NCBI GenBank assembly: GCA_003971905.1
Contig: RSEE01000174.1
Location: forward strand, 1 to 51,490
Length of the DNA stretch: 51,490 nt
Source of the DNA: Moniliella sp. 'wahieum'
Taxonomy: Eukaryota
Direction of reading: 5' to 3'
The notes beneath the pieces were generated by a model that was not told the DNA's origin, did not search any database, and worked only from the letters and a program-made list of their open reading frames with translations. Of the stretch, positions 2,654 through 51,334 are shown in pieces (the stretch's first letter is position 1; each line of letters begins with the position of its first letter). Both the position numbers and the translations under genes were made by a program.

Positions 2654-5038
2654 TGTGTTTGCCAAAAATGCGGTCACAGCGTCGCAGGTGGCGATGGATG
2701 CCTCTGATGACCAGCGCCTAGCGGTAAGCAATGTACGGTGCTCAAGCCTGGCAGCTGGATCCGAAAAGCAAGGAAGAGAAGGCTCGATGACGGGATGGAG
2801 TTGCTAGGAGCCTGTGGTGCTGGCCTGTTGAGATGTGGGATGGAGTGTGGTATCGACACACACAGTAATCCGGATTGCGAGGCATTTTTCTTCCGTCTCT
2901 ATCCCGTAGTGCCATGATCGACATGATCTGATCAACCTCCCTCGGGCTCCTTCGGCTGTGTCCCAAAGGGGTCTTCTGGGCAAGTCATATAATGGTTAAG
3001 CTCAAAACCAATCCCCCAAGTCGCAACCGTTGACAGGGGGTCTGATTCACGCGCTGACTTACATATTATGGGAGTGCGAGGCGAGACGCACCGGCAGAAT
3101 AAACGTTAAACGTGTTAAACGTTAAACGTTGATGCATGATGCATGATGGCTGCGTCCGAGCAGCGCAGCAGCGCACTCGTGATGTGGAATGGTACCGGCA
3201 CGGCGCTGCTCTGCGCCGCCCTTTCTGAGACATCACTCACGTCTCGTGCCCTTCCCGCCGGCACTATCAGTATACGCCACAACCTCTTCGTCCTGCCCTC
3301 AGGCAGGCCTCGTACACCATGCCCCAACGTGATGCATGTACATACTGTGCCTTCGTACTATCAACGTTCAACAAAGACTCTGTTGTGACGATGTGACGAT
3401 GCACGAGAACGGGGGCGGCCGAGCATCGGTACCTATATGTTACAGCACACGCATGGAAGCATCTCACACTGGTGCCGTAGTTGCTGGGGGGGTATATAGG
3501 GTCACATGTCACAGGCCTGTCATCCTCGTGGCGAGGGACATGCAGCGCAGGCTGGATAGCCTCTTTTTAGTGGTTGCAGCAGACTGTTGTCGGGACACCC
3601 AATAAAAAAGAAGGCCAAGCGACCGAGCGGAGAAGCAAGAGCCAACAGGCGAGTGTATACTAGTAGATGATTGATCTGTCTTCGAAGCAATGCACCGTTG
3701 CCCTTCTCGGCCGTCGTCAGTGGTTGGCGCTTGGTGTTACATGTTACATGTTACGAGCGGCGGCGGATCCGAGAGGGTCCGATCAAGATAAGGCCCGCCT
3801 GCTCTGCACATGCCCAGTAAAGCGTACTCTGCAGTCCAACCAAGTGTATTGATGGTTGGTTAAATTAGGTACGGTGGCACGAGGCGCATCCGCGCGACAA
3901 TAGTCGCCCCCGCCCATGTCCCAAGTCAGATGACCCAAATAAAAGGCCACCACGCTTCCTGTATCTTTGCGATTCGATGACTGTCGCCTCCGCTTCAGCG
4001 TCCTTTTCCTCTCTCAGTCGCACCTGCGGCGACCAACCCCTGTTTTGATGTGTCTTCCGTTCAACACCCCTTCTTGCTTCCGTTTCCCTTTCTTTTCATC
4101 TAGCCATCCCCGGGATGGTTGAAGGGGATCCTTTGCTCACCATCAATATTCACCCTCGTCCTCTCCGGCCTATCCTGTCCAACCCCTTCCCGTTTCCCAG
4201 CCAATTGATCAAATCAGTACAATTGCAGCCTCCTCTCCTCTTCGCTCCCATCACCTCTTCCGACCTTATCCTCCAGCTCTCCTTCCTTCCAGTCGCTCGA
4301 GCCCCCCTTCAGCTGCATCGATTCCCAGTCTCTGTCCGGTCTCAGTTTAGGCGGTATTTGCCCGCCAATTGTCCTCCCGTCCCTAAGTCCCGGAGGGTTA
4401 GACACATTCCTAACGCAGCCTTGCCACACGTGCACCGGCCCCACCATCGGCCGCTCCGCGTCCCTAGCTCCGCTCGGATCCACGAACATGCCCAAGCTCG
4501 AAACTGCCGTGAGTCGTCCTTCCGTCTCTAGGGAATGTATCTCACAACGCTGGGTGAGCCCCCTGGGGGGCCCGGCCGTGTTTGTTCGAACCAACAGCGT
4601 CGGCGCACCATTCGAGCTGGGTGGATCTGAGGATGAGTGGTGGCTCATCGTTCCCCAGGCAGTCCTCTTTCAGACGCGCACAGGTAGAGGGCAAGGCGGT
4701 GCACAGTGATGGAGAACGTGCGTGTGACGCTGGACGAGTTGGTGGTGGTAGCGGTTTGGTCTATTCGGTGGCGGCCGAGCCAATGAGACGGTGCAGCCCA
4801 CGCATGCATCGGTGCAAGTAATAAATAAAAGTTTAAACGTTTCAGCCAGCGGCGGTTGTTGCGCTGGCCTGGCGACGGATAACCGGTTACGGTAACCGGT
4901 AACCCCCATCCCAACCTGCCTGGCTCTGCCCAAGATCTGTTGTCTCGATTCTCAGCCTCCATTTCCCCTTCGGGTGCCTTCCCGCGCCTCACCTGCCATC
5001 CCCCGGCCCTCCACTGACCCTCTCTTCTGTGCCTTAAC

Positions 5039-5080
5039 ATCCCATCCCATCCCATCCCATCCCATCCCATCCCATCCCAT
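5039..5080. repeat. (ATCCC)n microsatellite, about 8 copies
   Basis: Directly visible immediately before the ATG at 5085. Confidence 0.97.
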
Positions 5081-5084
5081 TCCA

Positions 5085-8680: not shown

Positions 8681-9005
8681 GGCGAAGCTGCCAAGCGTTG
8701 CGGCACAATTTCATCCGATGGCACGTCCTCGTGTCACATGTCACATGCCACATGTCGTCATGCATCATGCATCATGCATCATGCATCATGCATCATGCAT
8801 CATGGGCTTAGTTGAGACAAGAAGCCACACTCTTTGTGTTGTAAAAATAGAGATCATGCACATCATGTCGTAACCGTCCTGTAACAGCACACAGCACTGC
8901 GACATGTGCCTAGCGCGTAGCACCAGTCATTCCAAGTACAAATACACCACGATTTCCACTACCAAGTGTCCATCTCTCCCCCCCTGTACCAGCATAAGCA
9001 CACTG

Positions 9006-12052: not shown

Positions 12053-13988
12053 TGTTGCCACGTCACGCGTCACCGGTCACCCACCCCCTGCCTTGCCTGA
12101 TTAGTAGACCCCAGAGTTGCACGCACGCCAGCAGGCTGTGTGTCCCTGTCCCGCTGCGCGTACTGTCCTCGTCGCCACCACCTCTTTTCCCCCTTCCCAT
12201 CCTCCTCGCTCACCCCAATTTGATTACGACTCGCTGATCGTCAGTGTGGTTTAGAGACCAGGTGTCCCCAGCCCAGAGCCTTCACGTGTCGCCACAGATC
12301 TAACGAGGTGGGCGTTTTCTCGCGTACACTCCCTTCTTCCACGCTCCCCCCCCACTCTCACACACCACTCTATTTTCCTTTTCCCAAGATGGTCAACAAC
12401 GAAGTTCATCTATGGAACACCTGCGACAGGGACTATCTCGAGAAGGTCCTTGCCCAGAACCACATCGCCCCGCGCTCATCCACCCAAAGCAAGGGCGACA
12501 GCGCGGCCCAGCTGGCCGAAACCAAACCTCTCGTGGAATGCACCTTACCACAGCCTGTTCCGCCCCACTTGAAGTTGATCGCGACTTAGCGGCGGCAGTC
12601 GCCCCAGCCCCCGCAGTTGCCCGGCCCCGACCAACGTCGACGAGCAAGGCCTTCTGCGAGTGTATCGCAAATTTCTCCTGACACCAGAGGCGGTTTCGAA
12701 AGACCAGCAGCGCGAATGGCACGAAAATGGCTATGATGATGAAGCCCTGGAGAGGTTCAAGAACGAGCCTCTCCCGACCTGGTCGGGGGGAAGCATGCGA
12801 CCTCGCTCAGGTTATGTACGATTTTGAAAAACGTCTCGAGCGGCGAAAGGTCTCTCACGCGTCAGTCACAAGTTTCGTCATCGCTCTCGCCGTCTTCAAG
12901 GGGCCCAAGGGCAACCTCGCAGAAATGGCCTGCGTAGAGCCCCTGGCCCAGTGTTGGACAAACTTGAAGCGAGCTCTCATCACGTATGTTGGGCCGGATC
13001 AGGCACTCGAGCGCTGCATCATCGACCTCACGCGAGGCAACCATTATGCTTCACTTGCCCGGGGAGAACTGATTGACCACGTTGTAAGAGACGGCGTGTT
13101 ACTAGGCTCTGACTCGTACCCATCATCTTGGACAACTTGTATCAACAGGTGCCTACCTGGCTGCGCGCCGCCTAGTTGGCGTCTGGGAGTCCACGCACGA
13201 TTGGCGCAAGATCATTAATGCTCTGCGGGCGCAGACTTCAGCGGCCGGGCAGCAAGACGAGCCCTGGCGCAACCGCACGCGCACCTCCAGGTCCTCAGCG
13301 CCGAACACGGCAAGCGCTCCACGCTCCACTGGCAATGCACGCCGCAGCCGGGCAGCCAAACGGCGCGGCCGTTAAGAGCGGTTGGTCACCGCTCTCATGG
13401 CCCAGCTGCGCGACGGAGGCCACCTCCGCGATCCTTTGCCGTCCCCTGAATCGTCCTTCCATCCAAAGACACTTGTGACATGCAAGCACCCACAGGAATT
13501 GGGATGCACATGTATGCGGAATGGGTTCATGCCGGTTCGGTGGATGGTACTCCGGAGAAGCATATCCTAATTATGGTGGATGAAGCGACACAGTTCGTTG
13601 TCTGCTGCGCCGGCCCTTCGCAAACGGCCAAAAAAGCAGCGGTGCTCATGCAAGACCGCTGGATCCGTCTATACGCCCCCCCAAAATCGTCACGACCAAA
13701 AACGACCCCAGCATTCGTAGCGCAATCATGTCACGCTTTCTGATGTTGCAAGGGTGCGAGGAGTCACACTCCAGCCGCGACTACACCCCCCAAGGCTACT
13801 CTAGAGTCGCCGCGCATAGGTCAATCTCCGGTTCCGCTCTTGTACTGCCCTCTTCGCCACCACCTCTTCTTCCCCTTACCTCCCGCTTGCCGCATTAACC
13901 GAATTACTTTGATTACACCAGTGGTTAATTGGTCTGTGCTTTAGAGACGATGTGTCTCCTAGGTACGAGCCTTTTACGCGTCGCTGCA
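12053..13988 (+). mobile_element. Small degenerate LTR-like element: diverged direct repeats flanking a Gag-like region and an rve integrase-like core, with no recognisable PR/RT/RH
   Basis: Best repeat match is 12160-12296 vs 13842-13988. Gag-like segment WTNLKRALITYVGP. Integrase-like HILIMVDEATQFVV..SQTAKKAAVLMQDRWIRLYAPPK[fs]IVTTKND..YTPQG at about 13490-13800. Confidence 0.65.
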
Positions 13989-17660: not shown

Positions 17661-18299
17661 AGGAGACAAGCAACGGCAGCGGACACGAGACAGCAAGCAC
17701 CGCTCGGGAGGCACGCATCACGTGACGTGTCATACGGCGGTCGCGTGTCACATGTCAGAGACTGGGGTCCGTGCGCCGATGGCAAATGTCAAAATACTGC
17801 CAAGCGGCAGCAGAGCAAGCCCCAATTGACTCTCCTGTCCTGCCGCCTTCTGCTCCGACACCGATTCCACCATCTCGTACGCTTCCCGGGGTCCCTGTCG
17901 CAGTGAGGGTCAAATAGCGTGGCATACCCGACCGGGTTCCGATGGCTGGAGGAGAGACTTTGCTTTTCTCCCCCCACGCACGTGTAACCCATCATTGCGC
18001 TCCTGGCCCAAAGATTGATTGGTGAGTCTCCTTCGTCTCTTTGTGGTTCTCTGTGATGGATGTGATGATTCTGGAGCTGACTGCGCTGATTGCCTATCAA
18101 AGGTTCATCCGGCTTAGAGTATGTTCGCGTTGTGGTGTACGGGTTTTGTCACAGTCGGGCTATGGCGGGAGACCATCAGAATTGGACTAGGCCAAGGGGT
18201 TGTAGCAATCGTTCGTGGGGAAGAAGCAAGAACAGAGGACATGGTGCGAAGTAGAAGAACAGAAGAAACAGGGAAGAGCGAGATTGACCGCGAATCAGA

Positions 18300-20070
18300 G
18301 GCAAGCCAACCGGTTCTTGATCGTAACCGAGTTGAGCGCACGATAGTCCACGAACAGGCGCTACGAGCCGTCTATCTTTTTAACAGACAGGACGCCCGCG
18401 CCGAAGGGAGACTTGGATCGGACGGATGAAGCCTGAAGCCAGGTTCTCCTCGAGCCACTGGGACAGGGCCTGGATTTCGCCCGTCGACAAGGGGTAGAGG
18501 CAAATCAAGATGGGGGCGGCGCCGGGGACAAGGTCGATGTCGTGGTCGGCGGCACGATGGGCGGGGAGCGTCTTAGCCCCTGACTTGGAAAAGGCGCTAA
18601 GGAAGGAGTGGTAGCGGGGAGGGACCGTCTGGCAGACGTGCTCCAGGTACTCGGGTGTGTCAAACTCGTCGGGAAACATTGGCTCGGGACCAACAGCGAC
18701 TGCGACGGACGAGACGGCCAGCTCGGGCTCAGGGGAAAATGCGACGTTTACCATGGCCTCGGGTTCCCTAACCACCTCGAGCTCAAACTGCCCAGAGAGA
18801 AGGTCAATAGGCGGTCCAGACCGAGAAGGCAGGGAGGGACCCGGACCAGAGGGCGCCGAGGAGGGGGTGAAGGAAAGAGGCTGGTACCGTGCGACGGGGG
18901 CGGGGCGAAGTGGGTAAGCGAGGGAGGAGGGGACGGGCCGGGAGGGAACCGAGAGGGAAAAGGAATCGAGTTGACAGAGGGGGACGAGATGGAGATAGAT
19001 GGGGACGTGGACTTGGGCCGGGGTCCGGGCTGGTGCTGGTGTGTGGTCTTGGTCTTGGTTTGGTCTTGGGCTGGTCTTGGTGCTTGGGCTGGTCTGGGTA
19101 CTTGACATGGGGCATGGGCTGGGGGCGGGCTGGGGCTGGGCCACCACCCCAGACAAAAATCGCGGCGGGGCCGAGGAGGCGGCGGGGAGACTTGGACGTG
19201 GGGCATCGGCAATGAGGTGGTCACGGGAGCACTAAAAGCACGCACCTTGAGCGAGGCGCTCGGTGCGTCGGGCCGCCGCTTCGGCGGTGGCGGTGGCTGC
19301 GCTGAGGACCATGCGCTCGGCCTCGGGCGTCGAGGGCCGAACCAATGATTGCTACCCGATCCCGGGGAGATTGCGATACCATGAGCGCCCAGCGATTGCG
19401 ATTGGCCGATGTCAACGGCCGCTGTGCGCAGTTGTTCGAAATGATCCGTCGCAAGTGAGCCGACTCGTTCAAACCATAGAGAAAGTTCCAGTAGCGTTCC
19501 TCATCGAGACGCGTTGGGGTTCCAGCGACGCAGCAGAACCATGAACGTAGCGGAATAGTCCATCGCAGATCCCGTCTGCCGAAGACGACGAAAACTCCTC
19601 AACGCCTTTTGCGCCGGGTTGAGGTCGCCCCACTGCTCCAGGAAAGCTGCACGAAACGCAGGACAAGACTGAAGGGCGGGCGTGATGCGCGCCTCCAGAG
19701 GAAGGGGCACCTCCGAACCGAATTGCTCCACCCAAGTGAGAGCCTCCCCTGCAGCAGGCCCTTGAAGCGGCAGATCCACGCCGCCGCGCCCATGTGCGTG
19801 AGGGCGACGCGCGCGTGAATCTCGAAGGAGGTGACCATGTGCTGGGCCTGGACCCGGTCACGAGAGTTGGGATTCGCACCGGACGACGGGCGGAAACGAG
19901 CGGGCTCGAACATCTTTGGCTCTTCGGACGCCTTGTTCGGGATGGCAGTCAGATTACCGTAAAGCCCAGGAGCGGGAGCGGGGGCGGGGGTTATGGTGCG
20001 AAGTGGAAGAAAAGGGAAGGGGAGAGACGCTCGAGACGAAAAAATTGAAAATGGGAGCGAGATCAGTCAA
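18300..20070 (-). mobile_element. Decayed Ty3/gypsy LTR retrotransposon fragment (Gag, zinc knuckle, RT N-terminus)
   Basis: Gag: LLQG[fs]EALTWVEQF..FRAAFLEQWGDLNPAQKALRSFRRLRQTGSAMDYSATF. Broken knuckle GACF..DHLIAD near 19230. RT start PPRYHSFLSAFSK..LPAHRAADHDIDLVPG..LYPLS..WLEENLASGFIRP[fs]SKSPFGAGVLSVKKIDGS*RLFVDYRALNSVTIKNR, which ends abruptly at about 18300. Confidence 0.92.
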
Positions 20071-20600
20071 ACTATGACAGTGTTGTACGACGGATGGGTT
20101 TAGTGGGTTGTCAAGAAGCGCTTGGTGGCTGTGCTCCAGTCCCATCAGTAGAACGCGTACGTGCATCGCGGAGACGCGGCAAAAGAGGGAGAGCGAACGT
20201 TGGAGCCGGGATCCCCGATCCATGTGTCACCGGGATAACCCCGACTGGCGGGGTCAGGGTAGCATTTGGGCTTGAGCTGGTCGCTTCACGCGGTGGGCTG
20301 GTTAGGGGGGGTTGAGGCATGAAGTTGGTGGGATATAACGAGCACAACGGCATCCTTTGTTTGTCCCCTTTCCTCCACCTTTAGCTTCAATGGCCCTTTC
20401 ACTGGCTAGTGACTCCTGACTCATTAACACGGCTTCGTGCCATCTCGACTTTGCTTCCCTCTCTGCCCCTCGTCTCGACTCCCGTCGGTGCTTCTCTCGG
20501 CCATAGACTGTATTGCCGCCAGTCCAACTGCCTGGCCCACCGCAACAGACGACCGACTACACTATCTCCCCTACATCGGCCTGAAAAGGCAATTAGAAGG

Positions 20601-20715: not shown

Positions 20716-21549
20716 GGGCCGAGGGAGCGGCGCAACAGGCGGCGCCGCCTTGTGGGGTCGGCGCACGCGCCCAGCCGCTCTGCCGCTGCGCTGCTCTGCG
20801 CCACAGTGCCGAATGGGTTCTACCGACGAGGCACGGGGGCAGCGGGCGCTCACCGCCCGTTGCGCCCTCCCGCGCCGGAGATACCGACGGGACGGGTGAC
20901 GGTGACCATCAACCATTGATCACTGATCAACTATCACCCCTGAGGCCTGAGGCCTGAGGCCAGGCTCGTGAGCAGTGGGAGTACACGCGAGTACGCCCGC
21001 TGCGAGTTGCCAGCTGCCGGGAGCACAACCGGGTGACCGCCCCCAGATGGTGGCGACCCATCGCCCCTCCCCACACGAGGCCGGCGGCAAAGCAGGCTAT
21101 ACAGGTGCCCTGCCCTAGATACTTGAACGCACCAAGTCCGACCGCATGCCTTGTACCGGATGCCGGTAGCCACAGCACCGACTAATCGACAGTCGGTCAG
21201 CAGCAGATCGAAGCCATGTATCAAAACTTCTACAGCTCGCGCCTATCTGCCCTCGCTGCCTCCATCGCGTATCCACGTTGTCCAGCACGCCATCACCCAC
21301 CACCTGAAACCACAGATCAGATCATCACCGGCTGCCGAGATGCCAGCACACCGCATAACCTTTTCGCCCCGTCGCCCACTAGTTTCCACCCGCCGCAACC
21401 GCACCTCCCCACGATCGCGTTCTGGCAGCTATAATAGCTAGCACACACGCCACTCCTCTCTCCCTGCTCCCCCACCATCTCTCCTATCCCTAGGCCGTCA
21501 CCCCCAGCGTCTCGCCGTTCCCGCCTCCCCCCGCCGCTGTCAGCCCTCC

Positions 21550-23745: not shown

Positions 23746-25168
23746 CATCCATCCCTCCCTCCCTCACTCTCTCCATCTATTCATCTATCTCATCGGTGCT
23801 CGGATCGGGTTCCCTTTGTTTTCTTGCGGGTCTCTGGAGGTCTTGCTAGGCGTCTTCTCTGTAACACGTAACACAACTGTGCTCCACCGTACATTCCATT
23901 CATGTTGATCTTGTGTTCATCCCTTTAGCTTCATTGTGATGATCGATGAGCCCTGGAGTCCTGATGGTCCTCTAGGGTGATGCAATCGCATAGTGGTGGT
24001 GGTGGGTGTGACAAGCAGCAATGCCTACAGAGGAACCTCAAGTACCGAGTCGCATCAATGTAACAGCGGGGCGGAAGAGGGCTGGGTGGGTACGTTCGAA
24101 CTGCGGTGCAATATGCAGGGTCCAAGGCACCTCCCCCACCCTACTCATTGCATCCTGGTGCGTCCTAATTGCCATAACGTGTACCTCCACGAGCGACTGG
24201 TTTCCAACCCGGAGGAACAACCTCCAGCTTTATCTCTCTTTAAGCTTTGTTGTGTATACAAAGAATCCTTAGTCCCGCCTGGGCCGCCGACAGTCCATTG
24301 GCCATGCAGATCAAGTCCGCTGCTTCGAAAGTAGGTGCGTTTCTGGCCACTCTACACACAGATTACCGTAACATCAACTGCGCTGCATCGAGGTCGCCTC
24401 CTTGTACAGGAAACTACAGTCGAGTTAAGTTGCGAATCCAAGTCACTTTCTTGTGCGTGCAGGCTCTTTTCCAGCTGGCGCGAGAGCTGGTGATTGGGCT
24501 TGGCGTTACACGGCAGATACAGATGCCGTATGACACTGTAAAGCCTGTCAAACTCATGATGCATGATGCATGTGATGTCATCATGTCATATATCATATGC
24601 ACATGTCACATGTCAGCCTGACAGCTCAGTCCCGCCACCTCCATCGGCACCGACTACTACCACCAGACGCGCGTGGTGATGGATGATGGGTTGTGTCTCG
24701 TTTAAGGTAAAAAGATGGAACAGTGGTTTGGCTGTTCCCACGACTGCATTGGATCCGCCTTTAAGCTTTTCACCCCAGCGACCTTGGCAACAGTCGGATA
24801 TGCCGTCAGGATAACCTTGTGTTTTCAAATAAGATCAAGAGAGGATCCAAAGGTGATCGATGATCTGAGATGCAGAGAAAGCGAAAGAAAGGTGCGCTAT
24901 TGTAGCGAGGCGTACAGAAACAGGGCTATGGTACAAACACGGCTGGGGTCAAGGCCTACTCACGTCGCCCATCCTGCCGCCCCCCGCCCCCCCGCCACCG
25001 TTAATAAAAAGCACCCGTGCCCGCCGTTCAGATCCTGATCAAACCCACCTCCTCCCTCCCTTCCCCTGTTGCATATACCCACACAGAGAAGCGTGGTCTC
25101 TCTACGCAAGCCTCTTTTAACCGATCCGTTCCATTCCTCCTGCCACCCTGACAGTCAGCACAAACCTG

Positions 25169-26585
25169 ATGAACCTGCTCCCGTTCGAATCAGTTCCCCT
25201 TCAGGGGCTTGCCCAATTCGTCCTGGGTCTGGCGATGCCGTGCCTACGGTTGATTTCGGGCTTGGCCCAAACGGCACCCCGATCGGGGTCCGTTGAACAA
25301 GAATCCCTTGGCCCAAACGGCAGCCGGCTGGGGCCTCCGTTGAACAAGAAGCCCGTCGCATTCGAGAGAGACTCGGAAAGCGTTTGCCAAAAGTCTCCGA
25401 ATATGGACCCCACGGCCTGGTCCAAAATCTCAATAATGTGGGACAACCCTCCGAAATCAAGGCGGCCGAGGCGGCTCATCAGCAGCAGCAGCAGCGGGAG
25501 TGGATGTTACGGCATCTTCCGAATCCCTATCCCACAACGGAAGAAAAGATGGAGTTTACGAAGGGCCCGCATTCCACGGCCCCGAACAACTTTCAACGTA
25601 CAAACGGAGGCGATGAGACGGGATTGGAAGGTGGAGCATTGAACAGACTGCACAGTCACGGGAAGAAGCCCGCCACATCGATCGAGTCGGTTGACATTTG
25701 GTTCAGAAACAGCCGCACACGGTCGAGCTGGACCAAATTTTTCGACGCTTATGCTCAAAAGGATTTGGAGATATGGACCGCATCATCACTCAATGCTGGC
25801 TGATCCAGACCTTGCCTCGAATGTAGAAGTGGTGATGACGCTCTGAAGGGTGTTCGCAAAGAACACTGTGGGGCCTTCAACGCATCCATTGACACGATGC
25901 CTTGGGGTTCCAAGCGCAGAAAGACAGCATCCGGAAATTCGGCGTCGGCCAAGTCCACTCATCGGGGGAACGAAGTGGTGGATGGATCATCGACCGCACG
26001 CAAGTGCTCACTGACTTTCGAGCCATGGTGCGATACATCGCCATGCCCAAGGACGAACACGTTCGCGATTGGGTTGATAAAGTAGCGAAAAATGGCACGG
26101 GAGATGATCCTGGCTCGCATTTAGGATTCCAATGCGAGGAGAATCGGGCCATGTGCCGGATTGGATGCTCACGTCCTCCGCCCCCAGACTGTCTTTCGAA
26201 CCGTTGCAACCTCGTACGTCTCTCTCTTTAATTGTTATTGAACACCAACAGGTCATTGACATTTTCTTGTAGTCCCTACTTCAACAGAGCCCCCCACATT
26301 GACTGACGGACCGACTCGTCAACATCGAACCTTAGCAGTACCACTTTGACTCCTGCGGTTCAGTGCTCTCATTCCAGTGGGGGCTCAAATGTGGCGGCGA
26401 ATGCTACGCCTGGGGATTTCGGGTGGTCAACCCAGTCCGTGAGCCAAATTCGCACTTACCAAGAACTTGGATCTTCCTCCGGCGGACTTTGGAAAGTTTG
26501 CGCTATGATCGACGGATTGGCCGAGCGAGGTGGAGCGGAGAGGTTCATTCTGACATTTTTTCCGAAAGAATTAGATATCAACTGA
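25169..26585 (+). CDS. TALE-class HD1 homeodomain protein resembling smut mating-type bE
   Basis: WMLRHLPNPYPTTEEK..(insert)..SVDIWFRNSRTRSSWTKFFDAYAQKD resembles, from recall, bE NPYPT..WFINARRRSGW. Downstream FRAMVRYIAMPKDEHVRDWVDKV resembles bE W..MISWIKYGVKEKVGDWV. Probable intron about 26214-26272; 3' end uncertain. Confidence 0.8.
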
Positions 26586-28334
26586 TTTGGGGGATGAACT
26601 CTACCCCGCGTCCCTTTAAGAGGACTTGTTTCTCAGAGCGGGATTTTGACTACCATATATCCTCGCTCGCCTTCCGGTGGCGCAGAGTCGCATCCCTTTC
26701 TATGAATATCTCTCAATGATCTGTTCGACAACAAGTTTTCCATTTCTGCCCTCATCATCACCACCACCGGGGAGATCCATCTGGCTACTGGCCAGCATTC
26801 TCCCACTGATTTTGACGCGCCGTACCAGGCATGGGCATTTACTCTGTCCTTATCTAGTGCCCAGCACCGAGAAAGGAGCCACGTATATGTCCGTGCTTTC
26901 AACACGCTTCCCCACTGCGTTCACGGATCTCTTTATCTTCGCGCATGTTGGGGTTGATGGCCATGCTTTCCTTTTCATATCCATTTTACCATAACCGGTG
27001 GCACAACTGTTCGAAGGTGTGCAGCAACTGCTATGGGTTTCTTTCGGAAAAGTCTCACGGATTCCGACAAGAATATCAACAAATATGTTTTTCATATACT
27101 TCTTAAGATCCAATCAATAACAAATCATTTTATATATCGTGTGCTTCTGAATAGGTGTGTGAACGACTTATATGGACCCATATATCATGCCAGGGAGGAT
27201 CGCCGAGAAAGTGCATGTATAGTGTTGAATGTTGATGTATTAGGAACCAAAGAAGTGATGGGAGTTGAGAAGCAAAGGTTTATACCATGTTTTGTCCTTC
27301 CCTAACACACTGGTGGTTTTTTTAATTTGCCTAGTTGGTCTGGGCATTCTTATAGGCACTAGAGTGCCATCGATCCGACGGCCTGGTTTGGGTGTTAATG
27401 GGCCCGTTCCATCGTCCTCCGTCTGCTGTTCCTATTATTGGTCCAAAAACTTGTTGCAAAAACGTCCCCTCTTTGTCGGCCTCGCTCCTACTCCATGTGT
27501 AGAGTGTGAGCACTGAAAAACGTCGTATGGGATTCATAAACTTTTACGACTATCCGAGACGTGCGAGCTCGGAAGGAAGGAAAAGCCGGCCCACGTGCTG
27601 AGACCTGGGGTCTGATGGCCCTCGAGGGTAATCGAATCACACTGGTGGTGGTGGTGATCTAATAACCAGCCACAACCAGCAACGCCTGCAGAGGATTATC
27701 AAGCAGCGAGTCACCATCAGGGGGCTAAGCTGCAGGACAAGGAGGAGGAAACAGGAGAGGGAAAACAACGGAACTCCCAGGCCTGAAGAGGAAACTCAAG
27801 GGACATTGGCCAGAGTACGAGCCACCGATGGCTAACATCACTTGTGACTCAGGGTCCGCGTGGTCCTAGAACGGATGTTGCCTATATATAGGAGGTAACA
27901 TTACAACCTAAGCTTGGGACGAAGAATCGCGGCGCCTAACCGGCCTCCAAATCCGGCGTGGTAGCTTGCTGGTGCAAAAGCCATTTAGGAAACCATAGGA
28001 ACCGCCTGCAGGTGTATATTGAGACTGAGGCCTGTCGTTCCAATAACGCACGCCGTCGTAGCGTGATGGGTCTTGGTGGGCTCAGGTGCTCGCACCATGT
28101 GGGGTACTTGAATTGGTGAAACCTGTCCCTGAATAGAGCGGCACCGGACCCGGCTGAGGTAATGGCCCCGGTTGTGCCTCCGGCACTAGTGCGGTGTCGG
28201 CAATCATTAATCCAAGCACCCCGGCGGAATGGGTTGGGCTAAAGTTTTGCCTTTCACGTCCCCAACGCTTCGTTGGGTACGACGTCGTTGACGTGCGTAC
28301 ACGTCGGCGGCCTCCTTCCGGCGTCACGGCCACC

Positions 28335-31268: not shown

Positions 31269-34200
31269 CTGTTTTCGCTATAGAGATCAGTTCCATGGCA
31301 GTTTTGTTACGAGCAATAGAAAGAGGGGGAGTTGAGGGTGTGCACGGACACAGTGGATCAGTACTGAGACAGTCGCGTTCTGCAGCTGCTCTCGTCGCAG
31401 CAGAGTCGCAGCAGAGTCGCTCCGGGCACGTGGCTGTGTGGGAACTAGAAGTGCGAGAGAAGGGAACTAGCATATAGGAATAGCGATGTTCGCCCAGACC
31501 ATTTTCGGTGTCCCTCCCACCCATCCGCGCAGCCCTCAGAAATGTCCGCACAGCAATACGAATGTGCTGGTACAATTGTTGTAACCAACAACAACGGGCG
31601 AAGGATATATTATCGTCCCTTGGCTGTTGGTGTGCACAACAGACACCCTCCCGACTGCCCCCCTGCAGCGCTGCTGCAACACCCGCGGACTTTGGGTTGG
31701 CCACTCTGCTTCTCTCTCGCTCCACCGGCCACCCGCACCGCCAGGGGCAGATTTCTCACGTCTAAAGTCTAAAGGCCCAGGCCGGGGGCAACATACCACT
31801 GTGGTGTTTTGCACACAGCGTGATCGCGTGGTTTCAGGTTTGTGCCTGGGGGGCAGCTCTCGGACCAGGCAGCTGATGCGCTGACGGGTCCTTGTGTCGT
31901 CCTCGGCTCTCCCCGGTGTGGCTCTGCTGGGCCCTGCTCCGCCCACTCGGCCGACCGCAGCAGCACACAGCTCCGCAGTCCAGTGTCGTACCTAAGCGTG
32001 TGTTGCTCGTGTTGGTCTGTGGCGCACCGCAGCCAGCCGGAGGGCGGTCACGCGTGACTATATATAGGCTTCAAGGGTGACATTACGCGTCACAAAGCAA
32101 AACGCCCGAGAGGATATACAGCGCATCGATTACATGTTACACGATGACGCCATCCGTCCTACTTTCCTCTTTCCAGTCTTGTATATCTAGCGCGAGCTTG
32201 GCTGGTCGCAGCACACGCAAGATGCACAGGTCGGTTGGGCGTAGCGTTCCCTGTCCCAGCCTAAGCTCTGTCAATGATAAGGACGCAATAAGAGAGCGAA
32301 AGACGGGCTGTGCCATTTCAGCGAGAGATAATCCCCCGATATGAGGAGGATACGATGTGGCCGCTAAAGCTTCATGGTGAGGGCTAGGGAGTCCAAATAT
32401 TCACAGGTGCTATAGGCAAGACAGATGCGCAGAGAATGCGAATCCAGGATGCGGAGTAGCGTCGCAGCCGCCAAAGCGTCACCAGCGGTGGCGAGGGGGT
32501 GATGAGTAGAAAGAGGGAAAGTCTCGCCAGGTGCCAGTTGTTCCAACTGCAAACCAGGCTGCGGCACGGGGGACGGTAGAAGAGGACACTCCCCCCTCCT
32601 GAAGAGCGGGGCTGAGAAGCTAGATACTGATGAAAACCCAGAGGATGGGTATAGAGATCCTAGGATGATGAGGGCTTTTGTGGCACTGGCAACTTACGGC
32701 AATCGGGGGGTGGTGGGTGTGTATGCCTCGAGCCACACCTTGTGTATATACAGGGGCCATAGTGCCATATGGCGCGGGATACTTGTATGTCGCATGTCGG
32801 TAGTCAAATTGGGCAAAAGATTGATAGCAAAAAAGGGGGGCTGTAGCGCGAAAGAGGATGAGATTGATGACAGAGAGAGTCCAACAGTATATGGCTGCAG
32901 TGGAGTAATGATCAAGGCTACTCACATCGCCCACGTTGCCGCCAGCAGTGGCTACGCCACTGTTAATAAAGTACCGTGCCACCGTCCCAGATCCTGAGAC
33001 CAAACCCCACCAACGTACCCCCACCCACCCCCTCCACTGCTGCTCACGACAGAGAGAAATCGTCTCTTCCGAAGCCCATATTGCACAGCCGCCTCGCTCT
33101 TCCGAAGCCATATTGCACAACCGCTTTCCATTCCCAGGCCGCAACATTCAGCATGAACCCGAATAATGAGCCCAGTTCCTTCCTATCCCCGTCAGGACCA
33201 TGCCAAGTTGGTCCTGCGTCTGGCGCTGCCGTGGCTGAAATTTCTCCGGGCTTGGCGGAGACGGCGGCACTCCTGCGGTCTCCAGGAAGAAAAAGACAGT
33301 CAGATTCGAGCCAGGCTCGGAAACCGTTGCCACAAGTCTCTGGAGAACGACTCAACGCCCTGGTCGAAGAGCTCTTGAAGGTGGACAAACTTCAGAAACC
33401 GAAGCAGCAGAAAGGGTCGTCAGCTTAGGCGGCAGCGGCAGTATGTTACTGCACTCCACGATGAACCCTTTCCCACGAAAGGAAATGATGGAGATGATGC
33501 GCAGGGCCCGGATTTGTGCCCAACAATGAGGACATGAGTGCCAGCCAAAATCCAAGATCCCTTTGATGCTTTTACGTATCGGGCCACCATGCCAATAACT
33601 TCTGCATACGTTCTCGTGGTGGCAGTCTTCTTCTCGTCGTTCTTCTACTCACTTGCTCTTCGACTTCCACGGTTACTAAAGCGGTACCCTATTTTCCCGT
33701 CGCCACTGCATAACTGCAGTTAGGGCGTCGCTGGGGAACCGGGATCATCGACCATTATGATTCATCTATAACGCGAACGACATCAGTACAAGCGGAAGGA
33801 GGGCGTGAGAGGAATCAGAGGGGGAGCACGTCTGCGCAATGCATGTGTCTCCTGAAGAGCGATGGGTGTGTGTTTTCACTACAGATGACGTCGATGTCGT
33901 CTCGAATATATGTATATCTCTCAGATCTTCCTCAGAACCACTTAAGTATGTAGGCACGTAACTCTCGTATAATTATCTGTTGGAATTTGTCTTTCTTTTT
34001 ATTACTGGTCTCGGCCCGTTCGTTCTATCTCGCATTAATTCGAGTAAATAAGCATCAACTCCCTCTTTCGTATTAGTAAGAACCAAACCATTTACTGGCA
34101 CCGTCGCCGCTTCTTGGAACGAGTCGAGCAAGTACGTGATCTTTCCCGTCCGGCAGTCGATGGCTCCAACGGCATACATCTCATCCCCCTCTCTTCCCTC

Positions 34201-35778: not shown

Positions 35779-37241
35779 CTCTATATAAACAAGAGGAGCA
35801 AAAGTAAGGACAACAGGAACAAGCAGGAACAACAGGAGTACGTAGCGGCTAGGAGGAGCGACGGCCGGTGATGTCACCGGTGAGCTGTTCGCTCTGCGTC
35901 TCCATGACGTCAGGTATGACGGGAGTCCGACGGCCCACGTGGGTTAGTAGCAACGCTGCGTGGGCAGCTGTTGCGTCGTGGACTTCGCGCCCGCAACGCG
36001 CTCGGCGGGTGTCGTGGGCAGCAGACCAGGCGATACGAGCGGTAGCGAATGGAGTGGTGGTGCGGAGGGGATGGAGTGGTGGTCGCCCCACAGGAGGGAC
36101 AAAGAGAAGGACCGCAAGGGGGAGGTCGCGCGCATGCGCGAGCTGCCCGCTGCGCCCCCAGTGCATATGGGGCGCACTGCGCCAGCCTGGGCAAGCGATC
36201 TATCTACGTCACACACAGCCTGTCGCTAGTGCAGTTCCACTCATGCATCATGCACCATGCATCATGCATCATGCATCATGGCACCTTCAAGCTTCAAGCT
36301 TCACGCGTCACGCGTCACGCGTCACGAGCCCCTGTTGGCGAACCCTGTGCAGTGACGCCATGCTGGATACACGAGCCGAAGTATACGCTGTATGACCGTG
36401 ACAAGCGCGTGACATGTGACAGCCAATCAGAACAGACACAGAGGGTGAACCAGGTTCTCGAGCAGCACCTTCGTTGCTACCTGTGGACGCGCAGCAGTCT
36501 AACTGCGTTGATCTTCTCTAGGCCGTAGCTCGGAAGACGCGTGTCGCACCCAGATGCGGTATCGGACCTACGCTGCGGAGATCAGCATCGCACCGAGGTC
36601 GTGCTTTCAGTTGGTCAACGGGTTTTTGGTCCGTCGCGGGGGCGGTACTTACCCGATGCCTCTTGGTTCCCTCTTGTTTCCTCCCACGAAGAATGGTCTT
36701 GCCATTTCCCCGTCTCTGACAGCACCTTGGTCTCCCGTCTAGCCCCGACTGTTTCATCCAAGAGAATCCGGCTACATGCTTGGTGTCAGTAATTCACCCT
36801 TCTCGAACGTCACCATTCCACAGCCGTCAATAGACGCCACGTGTGAGTGGGGGGAGGTAGAACACAGATCAGATTTCCAAAAGACATCATATACAAAGGC
36901 AACATTTTCTTCACGGGTACACTAATCATCGGTACATACATTCTTGGCAAACCTTTACGCTTTCGCCCACACACCATTCAGGTGCCATGTGTGCGGGGAG
37001 AGAGGTCAACAAGACACCAGTCGTCCCTTGGGGAATTCGCACATCCCGATACACGAGCCCACACGTGCACAGTACAAAGCAAGAAACCGAACGGGAGTGC
37101 AAGGCCCGATCTCTTGTCTTGCTTCCTCGATTGGCGGGGTCTCGCACCACTAAGGGAGACCTTATTGTGGCACGTTTCCCTCGGCATCAGGTCGCGTCGG
37201 ATCGTACAGGTTAATACCCTCGTGTTCTCACAGGAGCAGGG

Positions 37242-38931: not shown

Positions 38932-39544
38932 GCGGCTGATTGGGTGGAGTCGGGTTGGAGTGGTGGACGTACGCGCCCCCCACGCGGGAGATGGTGATGG
39001 GGGGGTGAGAGGCGGTACAATACTAATACGCAAAAGCAGGCCCCCTTGGCTGCGCCACGAGAGACCAAAGGGGGACAGAGAGGAGGGGCAGTGGTGGTGG
39101 GGGCGACGAGGGGCGGGCGCAACTTGCCGGAGCGATTGGATGTGCTCCATGGGCAGGCAGTGTGCGGGTGGATAATGGGTGCGCCTGTCTATCTATCTAT
39201 CTATCTACCTACTGCTGGGATCTGTGTGCCTCCCCCGCACTCTCCTTTTCCGGCAAGAGTAGCAAGTGTGCCCAGCGCGACGCATCATGCATCAGGCATC
39301 ATGCATCGCCCATCCTGCTCCAGTGGTCGAAGTGTGGTTCCGCCTCGGGGCGGAATAGGCGCGGCACTGCTTACCTCACGCCCGCCACGCCCCCCCTAAT
39401 GGCTGCTGCTGCCGTGGATTGTGGTTGGGCGTGCCATCACCACCGCCACCGTTTCTGCTGTTGCTGCTTGCGTGTTGCCTGCCTGTGCCTGCCCCCGCAG
39501 TGTGCCTACTGTCTCCGTCTCTTGGTTCCTTGGCAGCGTCCCCA

Positions 39545-41558
<2,014 letters not shown>

Positions 41559-43197: not shown

Positions 43198-43268
43198 GAT
43201 GGTTCTCGAGCGAAATGGAAAGGTGGGGTGGAGGTGAGCAGCAGGGACAGCCGTGAGGCCGCGCGTGG

Positions 43269-43490
43269 TTTATATGCGGGTGCAAGGGCCATCCAACAGG
43301 CCCGCAGGAAAAAATTAGGATCGGTTCAACTCGAAACTTTGACCTCTTGTTGCGGGGGGGGTGCAAGTTGCAATGTTTCCATGCGGATGGAATTGAAATT
43401 GAGATAACCCCACAAAAGAGGCCCGCTGCGCCGCACTCATAGAAGGGCCGGCTTGAAGCTTGACGATCAACGCCTAAGGATGGAGATGAG
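43269..43490 (-). promoter_or_regulatory. NSR1 promoter with TATAAA, an RRPE-like A-tract and a PAC-like motif
   Basis: TATAAA on the minus strand at 43269-43274; GAAAAAATT at 43308-43316; GAGATGAG at 43483-43490. These are short motifs, and the RRPE/PAC assignment is by analogy to yeast. Confidence 0.4.
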
Positions 43491-47300: not shown

Positions 47301-47431
47301 ACCACTCGGCCATCTCGGCTCTGTCGGTCGCCTCAAACGGCCAAGCCGACAACCCACCGGAGTACACGTACATCAACCCCATTGCCGCCCGCAACACGAT
47401 GTGCAAGGCCGCGACCAAGTTGGCGGTGTAA
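44387..47431 (+). CDS. Secreted multicopper oxidase (laccase-like, AA1) with a repeat-containing N-terminal pro-region
   Basis: Signal peptide, INGQYPGP, HWHG, YWAHPH, PHPFHLHGHKF, NPPFRD and LLHCHI|D(T)HLVQGM (Met axial ligand after one frameshift correction). Introns start near 45058, 45438 and 46948. Confidence 0.96.
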
Positions 47432-48393
47432 AGCAAGGTATATGCTGTCTATGTCTCTTCTTCCGCCAATTCCCCTCCCCTTCTCGCTCTTTCCAAGGGA
47501 GACTACATTCTCCTGTCATGTTCCCACCCCTTTTGTCCTGCTTTCCTTCTCTCTACGTGTTCCATGTTTGATAACACTTTTTCTTCCAATCGGCTCTTGC
47601 ACATTCTATCGTTGGTGCCTCGTCATCGTCATGTGCAGGATGCGATGATGCGATGGAACGGTGAAGCGCATGACGCTGTCGTTTTGGTGGGATGGGGATG
47701 GGGGGTGAGGGTTGCATTTCAGTTCCTCTTGCATCCAATCCGTCCCTATCAAGGGGCATATCATGCTTGCCTGCTCCCTCCCTTTCCCCTACGCCCACCC
47801 CCAGGCCCACCCCCACCCTAACGTTGTTTTTTCGCCCACCCCATTATGTTCATTTTTTCCATCTCACTGTTGGGGGCGTTGCACAGACTAGCATATATGG
47901 TGGTCTGCTGCGGCCTTCCTGGCTGTTGAGCTTATGAATTGTTTCTTCTTTCGTCTTGGTGGGACGGATTTGGACAGAGATAGAAGTAGAAGGCAGGTCT
48001 TGATCTTTTGGAAAGGGGGGAAGCGCGCCCCCCATCCGCGCTGCGGGCTAGAATGCGTGGTTAACAGCCAGCGGAGAAGCAGATGCTAAGCGCTTCCCTT
48101 AGTACTATAGCCCATGGGTACTAGTAAGGCCAGTAAGTGTGCTATACTTGTTGCATCGGCTCACTTGCTTTGGCTGGCGTCTTACCCTTCTGGCGTGAGC
48201 GCCCATTCCGGATGATTGCTGCGTGCCAACCCAGGCCCACTATGGCGCTACACAGGGCAAAAGAAGAAGAGCAAACGAAAGAAAAAGTCCGTACAGTAAC
48301 TACTTGTCCTTGTAGGCCAACCTCCTAGCCTCGGGCGCACTTCTGATCGCCCATCGAGCTCACCCCAGCGCACAATACTACTAGTAGCCAGTT

Positions 48394-50252
48394 TCACGCA
48401 CCAGCCCACCCACACCGCTTGCGAACCAGCCTTCGTTCTTTTAGTACAGGTTCGGCTTGGAAGCCTCTTCCTCCCACGCCCCGTCGTAGTTGGCCGTAAA
48501 GAGGAACGGGAGAAGCAAGTAGCACAGCGCGACTGCGCCGCAGGAGCCGCCCAAGAGGGAGCGTGCCATGGTCTTGTGTTGGGCGTGGCGAATTTATGCA
48601 ACCCAGTCGAGTTGGTATGGTTGGTGTGGTTGTGATGGATGTGGTGTGCTTGTCTCCTGGGTTGGTCACATTAGTAAGCCAGGGATTGCGTTGGTGCAGC
48701 CCGTCCCAAAAGAGTCGCTGGAGGGACATGTTGGCGGTGTACATGCCGTAGTCCTGGTGGGTCATGTTGGCAATAAAGTCGGCGGTATGTGTGGGCGGGA
48801 AACCACCTGGGAAATCGTTGCCGAGAGACATGATAAACTTGGAGCCACGGTCCAAATGGTTAAAACCTTGCCACATTGCCGGCGCGGCTGTCACGCCAGC
48901 TCCAACGTCCATCAAGGCCAAGCCGTAACCTACTGTGCGGTTGCGGTACCGGTCCGCGACCAAGCTTCCGTTTTGTGCTACCACGTCGCGTCGCGCATAC
49001 GACGGCACTTTGGTCGTGTTTTGGTGGATCCCATATGGCCATTGGTCGTACGTGTCGGCGGCTGAGGAGTTGGTGTTGGGACGTTGGGAGGTAAGGTAAG
49101 CCCAGCTACCGGGGTTGCCAATCCAAAAGCGGACATTGGGATCGTACGCCTTGGTCTTTTTCAGCACGGCGTATCGTTGTGCACCTTGTCCTCCGAGGGA
49201 ATGGCCAGCGACAACGACTTGGTTCAGCATGGGAAAGGTAGTGTTGAGAAACAACTGGTCCAGCAGTTGGTCCATGGCCAAAAAGGAGCTGATCGAATGC
49301 TTCATCACAGGGTTCTTGTTCGACCCACCCTGTTGCCAATACGAGTTGTTGAAACACAGGTACTGAGGCTTGCATGCGCCCGCTTGCAGATCTTGCATGT
49401 TGAGAAACACGGGCGCTACAATTCCCACACTGGCATTGGTCAACTTCCAGTCGGCCCAGGGCTGGATCCCTTTCCCACCCTGGATCACAGGATGTTGCGT
49501 GCGTTCAGCATGAAGTTGGCGTAGTTCCATACATCTCGCGGCTGGACCGGCAGAATTCAAGTAAGCAAGCAAAAAGCGAGCATTATGTACTTGTGGTCAG
49601 CCACCCCCTCCCCCTTTTAAGCAACACCGAAGCATACGGTACGTACTTTGCCTGGAAGGACGACGATGAACCGTTCCACGGTCGCGGGGTTATCGACGGC
49701 CATGTAATACGGAAAGATAGCCGACTCGTTGTTGAACCGGTTTCGAGACGCGGAAGGTATCATTAAATGTGAACCCTTGAATCTGGGGCAGTTGCTGCCA
49801 CCCTCCCTGCTCGGACCCATTGACATTAGGATCAGCCGTGACGGGAATCATGTTGTTCCAAGGGTACTGTTGGCCATCACTACCAATCAGCTGGCCAGGC
49901 ACGTTGGCCAGGTTCCCATTCGCACCCGTCTGAACTCCTGGAATGTTATCGGCAGCCTGGGCGGCCTGGACATAGTTGCCCTGCAGCGCGTCCTGCACCG
50001 CCGGAGCTTGGTTGGCGTCCGTGGGCGTAAACGCCTGCGATCCCTGGCGCCGGTCGAGCGGAGCGCGGGCGGACAGCTGAAACCCATCTTTTTTCCCACT
50101 CCATGGGAGGAGACAGACGCAGACGCAGACACAACAGAGGGAGTGAACGTGACCACCAGCAGAGTGGCAGCCGCAGACAAAAGGAGGGTAAGCGCGCGGG
50201 CGGCGCTGATGTTGGCCCGCCGCGGGGATGGTTGTGGGTGGTGCACAAGCAT
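48394..50252 (-). CDS. Secreted or membrane-anchored alpha/beta-hydrolase-fold protein
   Basis: N-terminal hydrophobic segment, FIVVLPGK|intron, WQQGG, ISSFLAMDQLL..FPMLNQVVVAGHSLGGQGAQRYA, WIGNPGSWAYL, YDQWPYG, THQDY and a frameshifted C-terminal TM segment. Confidence 0.85.
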
Positions 50253-51334
50253 ATCACAAAGGGAGGGGAGAAGACCCGCAAGGGTGATGGTGGTGGTGTG
50301 GTGGTGGTGGTGGGAATGGCAGTGGTGGTGATGGCGTTTTTTCGTCGCGTGGCAGCCCCGAGAGAGAAAAAGCGGGAGGCGCAGACGTGCTGATCTGGGT
50401 GGCAATGGGCGTGCCAGTTGTCAGTTGTCAGTCGTCCGTAAGTACGAAGTGGTCGCTGTCTGGGCTACCTTACTGCGTGGCGGGCCAAACCCAATGGGAT
50501 GTGGAGCGAGCACCGAGCGTCGCAAGCGATCCCACGCTGAGCCGTGCGGGCGAGCAGACGTGCACACTGCCCCCGTAGCTACGCGTAGCTACGCCCCCCA
50601 CCTGCTCGCACGCTCGCTCGCACAACCACTCCCCCCGTGCCTGCTTCTTGCACAAGCACGCTCTGCCTCGTCCCGGCTCCTGCAGCGGCAGTACACTGTG
50701 CCCGTGCGTCTGCTGGGCTGTAGTCATCCATCACCGATCGTCAGCCGCCGATCTCCGCTCGCCCTTGAAGCTTGACGCTTGAAGCTCGAAGCTGACGCTT
50801 GAAGCTCGAAGCTTGACGCTTTGTTACGCCACAGGCCGTAGGATGCAACTGCGACGGCGCAGTGCTTCTGCCCCCTTGCGCCGTTTGTAGGCTAATTGTT
50901 AAAGGGCTCCGCGCTCCACATGCACTGGACTGAGTTATGGATTGGCCAATGATTAATGATGGCTGATCCTCTGGCCGACTGATCGCTCCGACGCTCCAAC
51001 GCTCCGATCTCAGACGGCCTCATTAATCATCAACAACCACCACTGCAGCGCAGGAAATGTGGGAGGAAGCTGGTCTGGATAATACTAGGATTGGCGCGCG
51101 CACATCTGCAGCGATGCCACCATTGCCGCTTTCCAACTCATGGCTCCATCTGAGGACTCGGTACTCGCTACTGAGACTCAGTACTCAATCCTCAGTTGAA
51201 CGTTGATAATCATTGCCCATTTCGGTCCCGGGTACCGGTTGAACCCTCCCTGAAGGTTGAAGGTTGAAGCTCGAAGACCGGACAGGACTGGTGGATGCCA
51301 GGGTGGCAGGCGACGGCAAGGCACGCACGCATAC

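What the first reader, a model, noticed from the sequence alone, without database searches (positions are those of the whole stretch)
3100..51276. 7-bp arrays with a fixed TNA frame and interchangeable palindromic cores upstream of most genes
Seen: intergenic heptamer runs follow TNA + self-complementary 4-mer, i.e. an A-N4-T palindrome plus one spacer base, and the core often switches without losing phase. Examples: 3100-3148 (TAAACGT)n into (TGATGCA)2; 3737-3754 TTACATG; 4880-4904 TAACCGG; 8734-8804 TCACATG then (TCATGCA)6; 12063-12080 TCACGCG-TCACCGG; 17747 TCACATG; 20941-20961 (TGAGGCC)3; 24557-24615 TGATGCA, TCATATA, TCACATG; 36241-36326; 39285-39306; 43454 TGAAGCT; 50766-50821 TGAAGCT/TGACGCT; 51251-51276. 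Eight different palindromic cores are used, typically about 100-700 bp upstream of a start codon, and I did not see such runs inside CDSs. Inference: slippage alone does not explain a shared grammar across different sequences. Candidates are a dimeric factor reading spaced TCA/TGA half-sites, a chromatin-organising or modification signal, or palindrome-templated repeat conversion.
Basis: partly seen in the sequence, partly recalled or inferred. Interest (0 to 1): 0.78.

Follow-up and report, generated by a model that had tools for sequence, protein, structure and literature searches.

The report
Hairpin-repair scars building seven-base arrays
The 7-base repeats between the genes of this smut-related fungus are real, but they look like repair scars left again and again at T-any-A sites, most likely by a cut-and-paste jumping gene, and not like a promoter code.

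Summary
The arrays are real and occur across the genome. In 800 kb sampled from 8 contigs, 40% of TNA-N4-TNA words have a palindromic core, against 5-6% in three control frames. All 16 palindromic cores rank first among 256.

Comparing the assembly's ~93%-identical haplotypes shows how they arise. A non-palindromic site cd-TNA-ab gains a copy of up to 7 bases plus the two inverted bases b'a' (+7, sometimes +8 or +9). The core is copied from the flank, which explains both core diversity and core switching in phase.

This matches a 7-bp target duplication followed by hairpin (P-nucleotide) repair, as after excision of a flank-hairpin DNA transposon. Scars avoid coding DNA and are about twice as dense between divergent as between convergent genes. 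They are no better conserved than their surroundings, which argues against protein-binding sites.

I did not identify the enzyme. I found only two EnSpm-type transposase loci, and no resident element in 1.05 Mb. This scan has already reported the same grammar and reading from many other windows of this genome. It has also noted decayed EnSpm-like elements with a 7-bp duplication, which I did not check. Verdict: new variant of a known kind.

The parts
3100..3148 (.). Compound array: ACGT-core units with one 9-bp (+2) step at 3107-3115, then TGCA-core units
3735..3754 (.). CATG-core array at the end of an LTR (3749-4580); three other copies of the LTR (C3, C5, C79) lack it
4891..4904 (.). CCGG-core scar/array
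8732..8804 (.). CATG-core run (8732-8747) and TGCA-core array (8758-8804), 3 bases out of phase, upstream of a Cys/Met PLP-enzyme gene
12061..12081 (.). Two successive 7-bp gains at one TCA inside an LTR: CGCG core from the left flank, CCGG core from the right flank; the C1 copy of the LTR lacks both
17746..17757 (.). Single CATG-core scar
20939..20961 (.). GGCC-core array about 600 bp upstream of the MFS transporter gene
24555..24615 (.). Cluster of TGCA-, CATG- and TATA-core scars, including an 8-bp form at 24576
36241..36326 (.). TGCA array (36241-36280), then AGCT switching to CGCG in phase (36285-36326)
39282..39307 (.). TGCA-core run with one non-palindromic unit, in the divergent spacer before the poly(A) polymerase gene
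43452..43463 (.). AGCT-core scar in the divergent spacer between the RRM (nucleolin-like) gene and the multicopper oxidase gene
50764..50821 (.). Degenerate AGCT/CGCT array with a 20-bp higher-order repeat
51251..51276 (.). TNA-framed run with a mostly non-palindromic core (AGGT, then AGCT)
2913..2928 (+).
3361..3513 (.).
23938..24865 (.).
32130..32141 (.).
36410..36421 (.).
50948..51206 (.).

Best explanation
Each unit is a repair scar. SHOWN: (1) the target is any cd-T-N-A-ab, with N mostly C or G; (2) the event leaves the 7-mer, then the inverted copy b'a' of its last two bases, then a second copy of the 7-mer missing 2, 1 or 0 of its first bases (+7, +8, +9), and the mirror image occurs equally; (3) a later event at the same TNA adds another unit, templated by whichever flank is used, so cores repeat or switch while the TNA phase is kept. 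INFERRED: the duplication is the 7-bp target-site duplication of a cut-and-paste DNA transposon, probably of the EnSpm/CACTA-Transib (CMCT) clade. On excision it seals the host ends into hairpins. These are opened two bases from the tip and joined, most often through the T of the symmetric TNA, which gives the dominant +7. A few long-active elements hopping repeatedly, with a preference for open promoter DNA and with loss of frameshifting scars from genes, would give the observed distribution. Slippage may lengthen arrays afterwards.
For: Haplotype indels peak at 7 bp: 77, against 38 at 6 bp and 23 at 8 bp. Of 52 clean 7-bp indels, 12 need two inverted bases and 4 need one; all 16 are at TNA. 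13 are plain copies and 23 fit no exact model, many by one mismatch. By a more lenient test, a TNA scar overlaps 35 of 52 7-bp, 2 of 10 8-bp and 4 of 9 9-bp indels, and none in three control frames. Spectrum in 800 kb, written (inverted bases, retained flank bases): (2,0)=319, (2,1)=28, (2,2)=52, (2,3)=1; control frames give 6-14, 0-3, 1-4 and 0-1. So the duplicated unit stops at 7 bp, symmetric about N. One inverted base from each end: 14, against 1-3. T before N: 891, against 73, 35 and 23; no excess when the third base is not A. Single elements are asymmetric: 84 and 68 extend two bases on one side only, 25 on both, of 544. Three three-way comparisons, judged by eye, show gain in one copy only; the window LTR arrays at 3735 and 12061 are absent from other copies. 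Loci per kb: coding 0.03, multi-copy repeats 0.12, convergent 0.92, tandem 1.37, divergent 2.01. Flank hairpins and footprints are described for hAT, Transib, RAG and MULE (PMC5499845, passages). Two Transposase_21 loci are in the genome.
Against: I saw no resident inverted-repeat element with a 7-bp TNA duplication in 1.05 Mb. The large haplotype insertions whose ends could be read were LTRs or solo LTRs; several were not classified. This is odd if about 50,000 scars (609 loci in 800 kb, extrapolated) each needed an insertion. Described fungal EnSpm and Plavaka elements make 2-3-bp duplications (PMC12730594, PMC12810828; passages). hAT7 makes 7-bp duplications, but PF05699 was not found (uninformative control), and Ac/Ds palindromes centre on an extra base, unlike these. 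Plain 7-bp duplications without inverted bases are not enriched (72, against 128-174 in controls). The scars are far more uniform than Ac/Ds footprints in yeast or plants. Direction is polarised for only a few events. 23 of 52 clean 7-bp indels fit no exact model. Resident EnSpm-like copies with such a duplication are known to me only from unchecked earlier notes.
Confidence: 0.62

Rival explanations
1. The scar is the same, but no insertion occurs. A host or domesticated enzyme (for example an EnSpm-derived nuclease, or a topoisomerase or recombinase) makes a 7-nt staggered break at TNA. The ends are filled, one is sealed into a hairpin and reopened, and end joining gives the +7/+8/+9 products. 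It would act as a promoter-focused mutator.
For: No resident element in 1.05 Mb against about 600 scars per 800 kb. Only two Transposase_21 loci, with open frames of 351 and 251 aa, in an assembly that holds about four copies of most genes. The product is very uniform, and events are recent enough to differ between haplotypes.
Against: I know of no enzyme (recalled, not searched) that makes 7-nt staggered cuts plus zero-loop hairpins without insertion. Earlier notes describe decayed elements with exactly this duplication (unchecked).
Confidence: 0.2
2. Replication template switching: the nascent strand copies 2-3 bases backwards, then re-primes at the T of TNA.
For: It gives the dominant +7 product in one step, using the T as microhomology. 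Words with an inverted spacer also carry palindromic cores 4-7 times more often than expected.
Against: Empty sites offer no pairing for a fold-back with no loop. It does not explain the sharp 7-bp limit, the +8 and +9 forms, the both-end forms, or the lack of any effect in ANT, CNG and GNC frames.
Confidence: 0.08
3. The arrays are selected binding sites or chromatin signals for a dimeric factor reading spaced TCA/TGA half-sites.
For: There is a 5' bias: about 2 loci/kb within 300 bp of a 5' end, against 0.3-0.5/kb within 300 bp of a 3' end. The spacer is mostly C or G.
Against: All 16 palindromic cores are enriched and non-palindromic ones are not, which independent half-site reading cannot give. 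Cores follow the flank. Elements turn over faster than local DNA: gaps of 5 bases or more in 87 of 331 (26%), against 297 of 5393 (6%). Later co-option of single scars is not excluded.
Confidence: 0.06
4. Assembly or base-calling artefact, or ordinary slippage.
For: The assembly is rich in small indel errors (1806 one-base gaps between haplotypes). 13 of 52 clean 7-bp indels are plain copies.
Against: 148 of 331 elements are identical in both haplotypes. Scars avoid coding DNA and show point decay. Slippage cannot make the inverted bases.
Confidence: 0.04

Closest known systems
Excision footprints with P nucleotides of flank-hairpin transposases: hAT (Ac/Ds, Hermes), Transib, RAG, MULE Muta1 (PMC5499845 and PMC5873905; passages read)
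   Same: Target duplication retained; short palindromic addition templated by the flank; one or two dominant products; short P arms as for Ds in Candida albicans.
   Different: Here the palindrome is even-centred, with no extra tip base, whereas Ac/Ds palindromes centre on the complement of the base next to the element. The target is a symmetric 7-mer with a strict T-N-A centre. Scars occur at about 0.76 per kb genome-wide and stack into arrays.
hAT7 of rust fungi (PMC12730594; passages)
   Same: Basidiomycete DNA transposons with 7-bp target duplications in a hairpin-forming superfamily.
   Different: No hAT dimerisation domain was found in this genome (weak control). No TNA target or footprint is described in the passages seen. 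hAT-type palindrome geometry is not seen here.
Fungal EnSpm/CACTA and Plavaka (CMCT clade), e.g. CNEST of Cryptococcus (PMC12730594, PMC12810828; passages)
   Same: Transposase_21 loci are present in this genome. The clade includes Transib, which forms flank hairpins.
   Different: Described duplications are 2-3 bp, not 7. The passages searched mention no footprints.
The '10-bp repeats' of Ustilago maydis, suggested to be transposon footprints (as cited in PMC4081816; passages)
   Same: Numerous tiny intergenic repeats in a smut genome, read as scars of past transposition.
   Different: Their sequence and rule are not given in the passages I saw, and the primary paper is not held, so identity with this grammar could not be tested.

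Membership tests
Flank-hairpin transposon excision footprints | Direct target duplication of fixed maximal length | tested here: met
   Duplicated unit up to 7 bp: (2,2)=52, (2,3)=1
Flank-hairpin transposon excision footprints | Palindromic (P) bases templated by the flank end | tested here: met
   12 two-base and 4 one-base cases among 52 clean 7-bp haplotype indels, all at TNA
Flank-hairpin transposon excision footprints | Either or both ends can donate P bases | tested here: met
   Mirror forms 84 and 68 of 544; both-end form 14 against 1-3
Flank-hairpin transposon excision footprints | Resident elements flanked by the same target duplication | tested here: inconclusive
   None in 1.05 Mb of 69.5 Mb; reported elsewhere in the genome by unchecked notes
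Flank-hairpin transposon excision footprints | Scar observed to arise by excision of an element | not testable with these tools
   Needs lineages or a reporter assay
hAT / hAT7 | 7-bp target duplication (hAT7) | tested here: met
   PMC12730594 passage
hAT / hAT7 | P arms centred on the complement of the base bordering the element | tested here: not met
   The first inserted base is b', not the complement of the next base (0.20-0.24, chance level); Ac/Ds rule from PMC5873905
hAT / hAT7 | hAT transposase (PF05699) in the genome | tested here: inconclusive
   0 matches, but the control genomes gave none either
EnSpm/CACTA (CMCT clade) | Tnp2-type transposase (PF02992) | tested here: met
   C17:557095-557541 over cut-off, C34:514908-515195 under it; link to the scars not shown
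EnSpm/CACTA (CMCT clade) | 2-3-bp target duplication | tested here: not met
   Scars imply 7 bp, against 2-3 bp
EnSpm/CACTA (CMCT clade) | CAC..GTG termini on the responsible element | not tested
   The DNA around the transposase loci was not examined; one pattern count (412 against 238) is confounded by the scars themselves
MULE, Plavaka, KDZ | Transposase domain in the genome (PF10551, PF18759, PF18758) | tested here: inconclusive
   0 matches each; the control rang only for MULE
Slippage microsatellites | Added unit is a direct copy of adjacent DNA, with no target rule | tested here: not met
   16 of 52 clean 7-bp indels need inverted bases; 286 of 298 palindrome+1 heptamer tandems have A..T outer pairs
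Transcription-factor site arrays | Fixed motif conserved above background | tested here: not met
   16 cores are used; 45% identical between haplotypes against 52% for local DNA

The most novel reading that the evidence does not exclude
A so far undescribed hairpin-forming transposase lineage with a 7-bp NN-TNA-NN target, or a domesticated form of it, acts as a standing promoter-biased mutator. It has written about 50,000 scars into this genome, supplies most of the clean 7-9-bp differences between haplotypes, seeds microsatellites and palindromic hexamers next to genes, and also operates at low level in mushroom-class fungi.
Probability: 0.3. Interest if true: 0.82.

Novelty: new variant of a known kind. 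Interest (0 to 1): 0.62.

Why it matters
It would be a genome in which the main source of mid-sized indels is one rule-bound enzymatic scar: a scar overlaps 41 of 71 clean 7-9-bp haplotype indels. It would also show a route to tandem repeats that does not start with slippage. The scars record target choice, duplication length and hairpin-opening position for an element that has almost vanished. Each event writes a palindromic hexamer beside promoters, which is raw material for regulatory change. It also gives a testable rule for the small repeats long proposed to be footprints in smut genomes.

Tried and rejected
General palindrome or cruciform selection around TNA was rejected. Isolated 7-bp pseudo-palindromes extend no more often than chance (584 of 2184), so the excess lies only in the periodic forms. 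Periods 5, 9 and 11 show no comparable class.

Search for resident inverted-repeat elements in 1.05 Mb: only chance or array-derived hits (the middle's output was cut). Repeat families were mostly LTRs, plus one ~120-bp inverted-repeat family with apparently 2-bp duplications.

Pfam hAT, MULE, Plavaka and KDZ: no match.

No RNA holder was listed, so positions rest on a self-trained HMM. That HMM missed some window genes and may avoid scars by construction.

The more distant (~76-81%) gene copies in the assembly and the DNA around the two transposase loci were not examined.

Paper searches that found no description of this grammar: (listings only; two searches returned 0 papers). PMC4824034 (term search) had no footprint passage. 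Most subscription papers, including the primary U. maydis/U. hordei comparison, are not held. Supplements were not opened; those of PMC12730594 (hAT7 sequences and duplications) may bear on the target rule.
Full report
SETTING. The window is a whole 51-kb contig (C174) of a 69.5-Mb, 223-contig assembly. Its poly(A) polymerase is closest to Ustilaginomycotina: among named hits the highest identity is Tilletiaria at 73%, and two unnamed relatives reach 88-90%. The assembly holds several copies of most regions: pairs at about 93% identity and more distant pairs at about 76-81%. It has many small indel errors. I analysed 800 kb from 8 contigs plus 200 kb of partner haplotypes, about 1.4% of the genome.

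OBSERVATION. All listed runs are present. In the window, 14 of 29 perfect period-7 tandems are a 6-bp palindrome plus one base, all with A..T outside. The 12-mer TNAab-b'a'-TNAab occurs 60 times, against 0.1 expected. One three-unit word occurs 487 times genome-wide, overlapping hits included, against 0 for its reversed control. In 800 kb, 298 of 523 perfect heptamer tandems are palindrome+1, and 286 of these have A..T outside. Among TNA-N4-TNA words, 1890 of 4698 (both strands) have a palindromic core, against 184 of 3240, 566 of 9318 and 526 of 10918 in the ANT, CNG and GNC frames. The 16 palindromes take ranks 1-16 of 256.

ANATOMY. The smallest element is lopsided. Of 544 single elements, 84 extend two bases only to the right, 68 only to the left and 25 to both. 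Both T and A are required; N is C or G in 241 of 312 oriented sites. There is no general excess of palindromes around TNA outside the periodic form.

HOW THEY ARISE. Across 194 kb of aligned haplotypes, indel lengths peak at 7 (77, against 38 at 6 and 23 at 8). Of 52 indels with clean flanks, 12 are a 5-base direct copy plus two inverted bases and 4 are a 6-base copy plus one inverted base, all at TNA, with non-palindromic empty sites. 13 are plain copies, mostly inside arrays. 23 fit no exact model, and many of these look like decayed scars. The genome sample shows a family of products: two inverted bases followed by 0, 1, 2 or 3 retained flank bases occur 319, 28, 52 and 1 times (controls 6-14, 0-3, 1-4, 0-1), and one inverted base from each end occurs 14 times (controls 1-3). 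The duplicated unit is therefore at most 7 bp, symmetric about N. Plain 7-bp duplications are not enriched.

DIRECTION. It was polarised only by a few repeat comparisons, judged by eye: three three-way cases show gain in one copy. In the window, the LTR at 12054 carries two extra heptamers that the C1 copy lacks, one templated from each flank of the same TCA. The array at 3735 is absent from three other copies of its LTR. A 7-fold genome-wide excess of the filled form also needs net gain (inference).

POSITION. With a self-trained coding model (unvalidated, missed some window genes), the 609 loci fall at 0.03/kb in coding DNA (11 in 363 kb), 0.12 in multi-copy repeats, 0.92 between convergent genes, 1.37 between tandem genes and 2.01 between divergent genes. 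Density is about 2/kb within 300 bp of 5' ends, against 0.3-0.5/kb near 3' ends. The promoter bias is thus real but only 2- to 5-fold. Elements are not conserved above local DNA: identical in 148 of 331, against 2812 of 5393. Substitutions in ungapped elements are 0.026 per site, against 0.036 locally, but that figure is biased down because elements were defined as intact in one haplotype.

MECHANISM. A 7-bp duplication with inverted bases starting exactly at its edge is what insertion followed by excision through flank hairpins leaves. This pathway is described for hAT, Transib, RAG and the MULE Muta1 (PMC5499845, passages). Short P arms with one or two dominant products are described for Ds in Candida (PMC5873905, passages). 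Opening two bases from the tip matches what I recall of Artemis (recalled, no call). Ac/Ds palindromes centre on an extra base, and these do not. That points away from hAT, although hAT7 of rusts makes 7-bp duplications (PMC12730594, passages), and towards RAG/Transib-like geometry.

THE MISSING ENZYME. The only transposase family I detected is Transposase_21 (EnSpm/CACTA), at two loci; hAT, MULE, Plavaka and KDZ gave none. Described fungal EnSpm elements make 2-3-bp duplications, so membership fails on that feature. I found no resident element with the predicted duplication in my sample. That is the main weakness, and it keeps a domesticated or host cutter alive as a rival.

OTHER GENOMES. 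Scars with other cores numbered 16 in 463 kb, against 19 over three control frames, so most of these loci lack the grammar. A group of 18 loci picked afterwards by shared contig-name prefix had 7 in 91 kb, against 0-2 in 10 simulations and 0, 0 and 1 in control frames. The other 62 long loci had 8, against 0-6. One locus of the group encodes a protein closest to Thelephora, an agaricomycete. This is a post hoc, weak hint that the same scar exists at a tenth of the density in mushroom-class fungi.

PRIOR WORK. I reached the footprint reading before opening the scan's notes (notes). The notes show that the same grammar and reading were reported from many other windows of this genome. They also report decayed ~5-kb EnSpm-like elements with a 7-bp NN-TNA-NN duplication, which I could check only as far as the Pfam hit. 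In print I found only the suggestion that 10-bp repeats of U. maydis are footprints (PMC4081816, passages). Searches showed no description of this rule, but the library lacks most subscription papers.

VERDICT. This is a real and sharply defined mutational signature. It works like a hairpin-type excision footprint, its enzyme is not identified, and it is not a promoter code. New variant of a known kind; interest 0.62.

Noticed in passing
window 25169-25800 (+) and 33153-33500 (+): Two related, frameshifted genes; the first has a homeodomain-like helix (WFRNSR) resembling HD1/bE mating-type proteins (recognised from recall). The upstream regions of the two are also similar.
   Followed up: partly
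window 1-660 and 727-794: 40-bp tandem array followed by degenerate telomere-like repeats; already noted by the scan (e1-7835206).
   Followed up: no
G000 contig pairs C3/C79, C1/C25, C8/C23, C14/C19, C21/C36, C13/C30: The assembly holds about four copies of many regions (pairs at ~93%, between pairs ~76-81%), as in a double hybrid or polyploid. Genes of this window match others at only 67-80%, with no ~93% partner.
   Followed up: partly
C5:338840-338958 and 342822-342942 (L024, L025); two copies on C79: ~120-bp inverted-repeat (MITE-like) family with CAT..ATG ends and apparently 2-bp duplications in 3 of 4 copies, read by eye. It does not fit the 7-bp rule.
   Followed up: partly
C1:232016 region (L004): A scar sits where other copies read CGA in place of TGA, so a C-to-T change seems to have created the target first.
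   Followed up: no
L101, L112, L139, L143, L157: Metagenome contigs, at least one agaricomycete-like, carry TNA scars with several cores, including a mixed-core array in L112.
   Followed up: partly
window 18146-20084, 3749-4580, 12054-12298, 27595-27839: LTR-retrotransposon remnants and solo LTRs of multi-copy families; multi-copy repeats are nearly free of scars (0.12-0.16/kb).
   Followed up: partly
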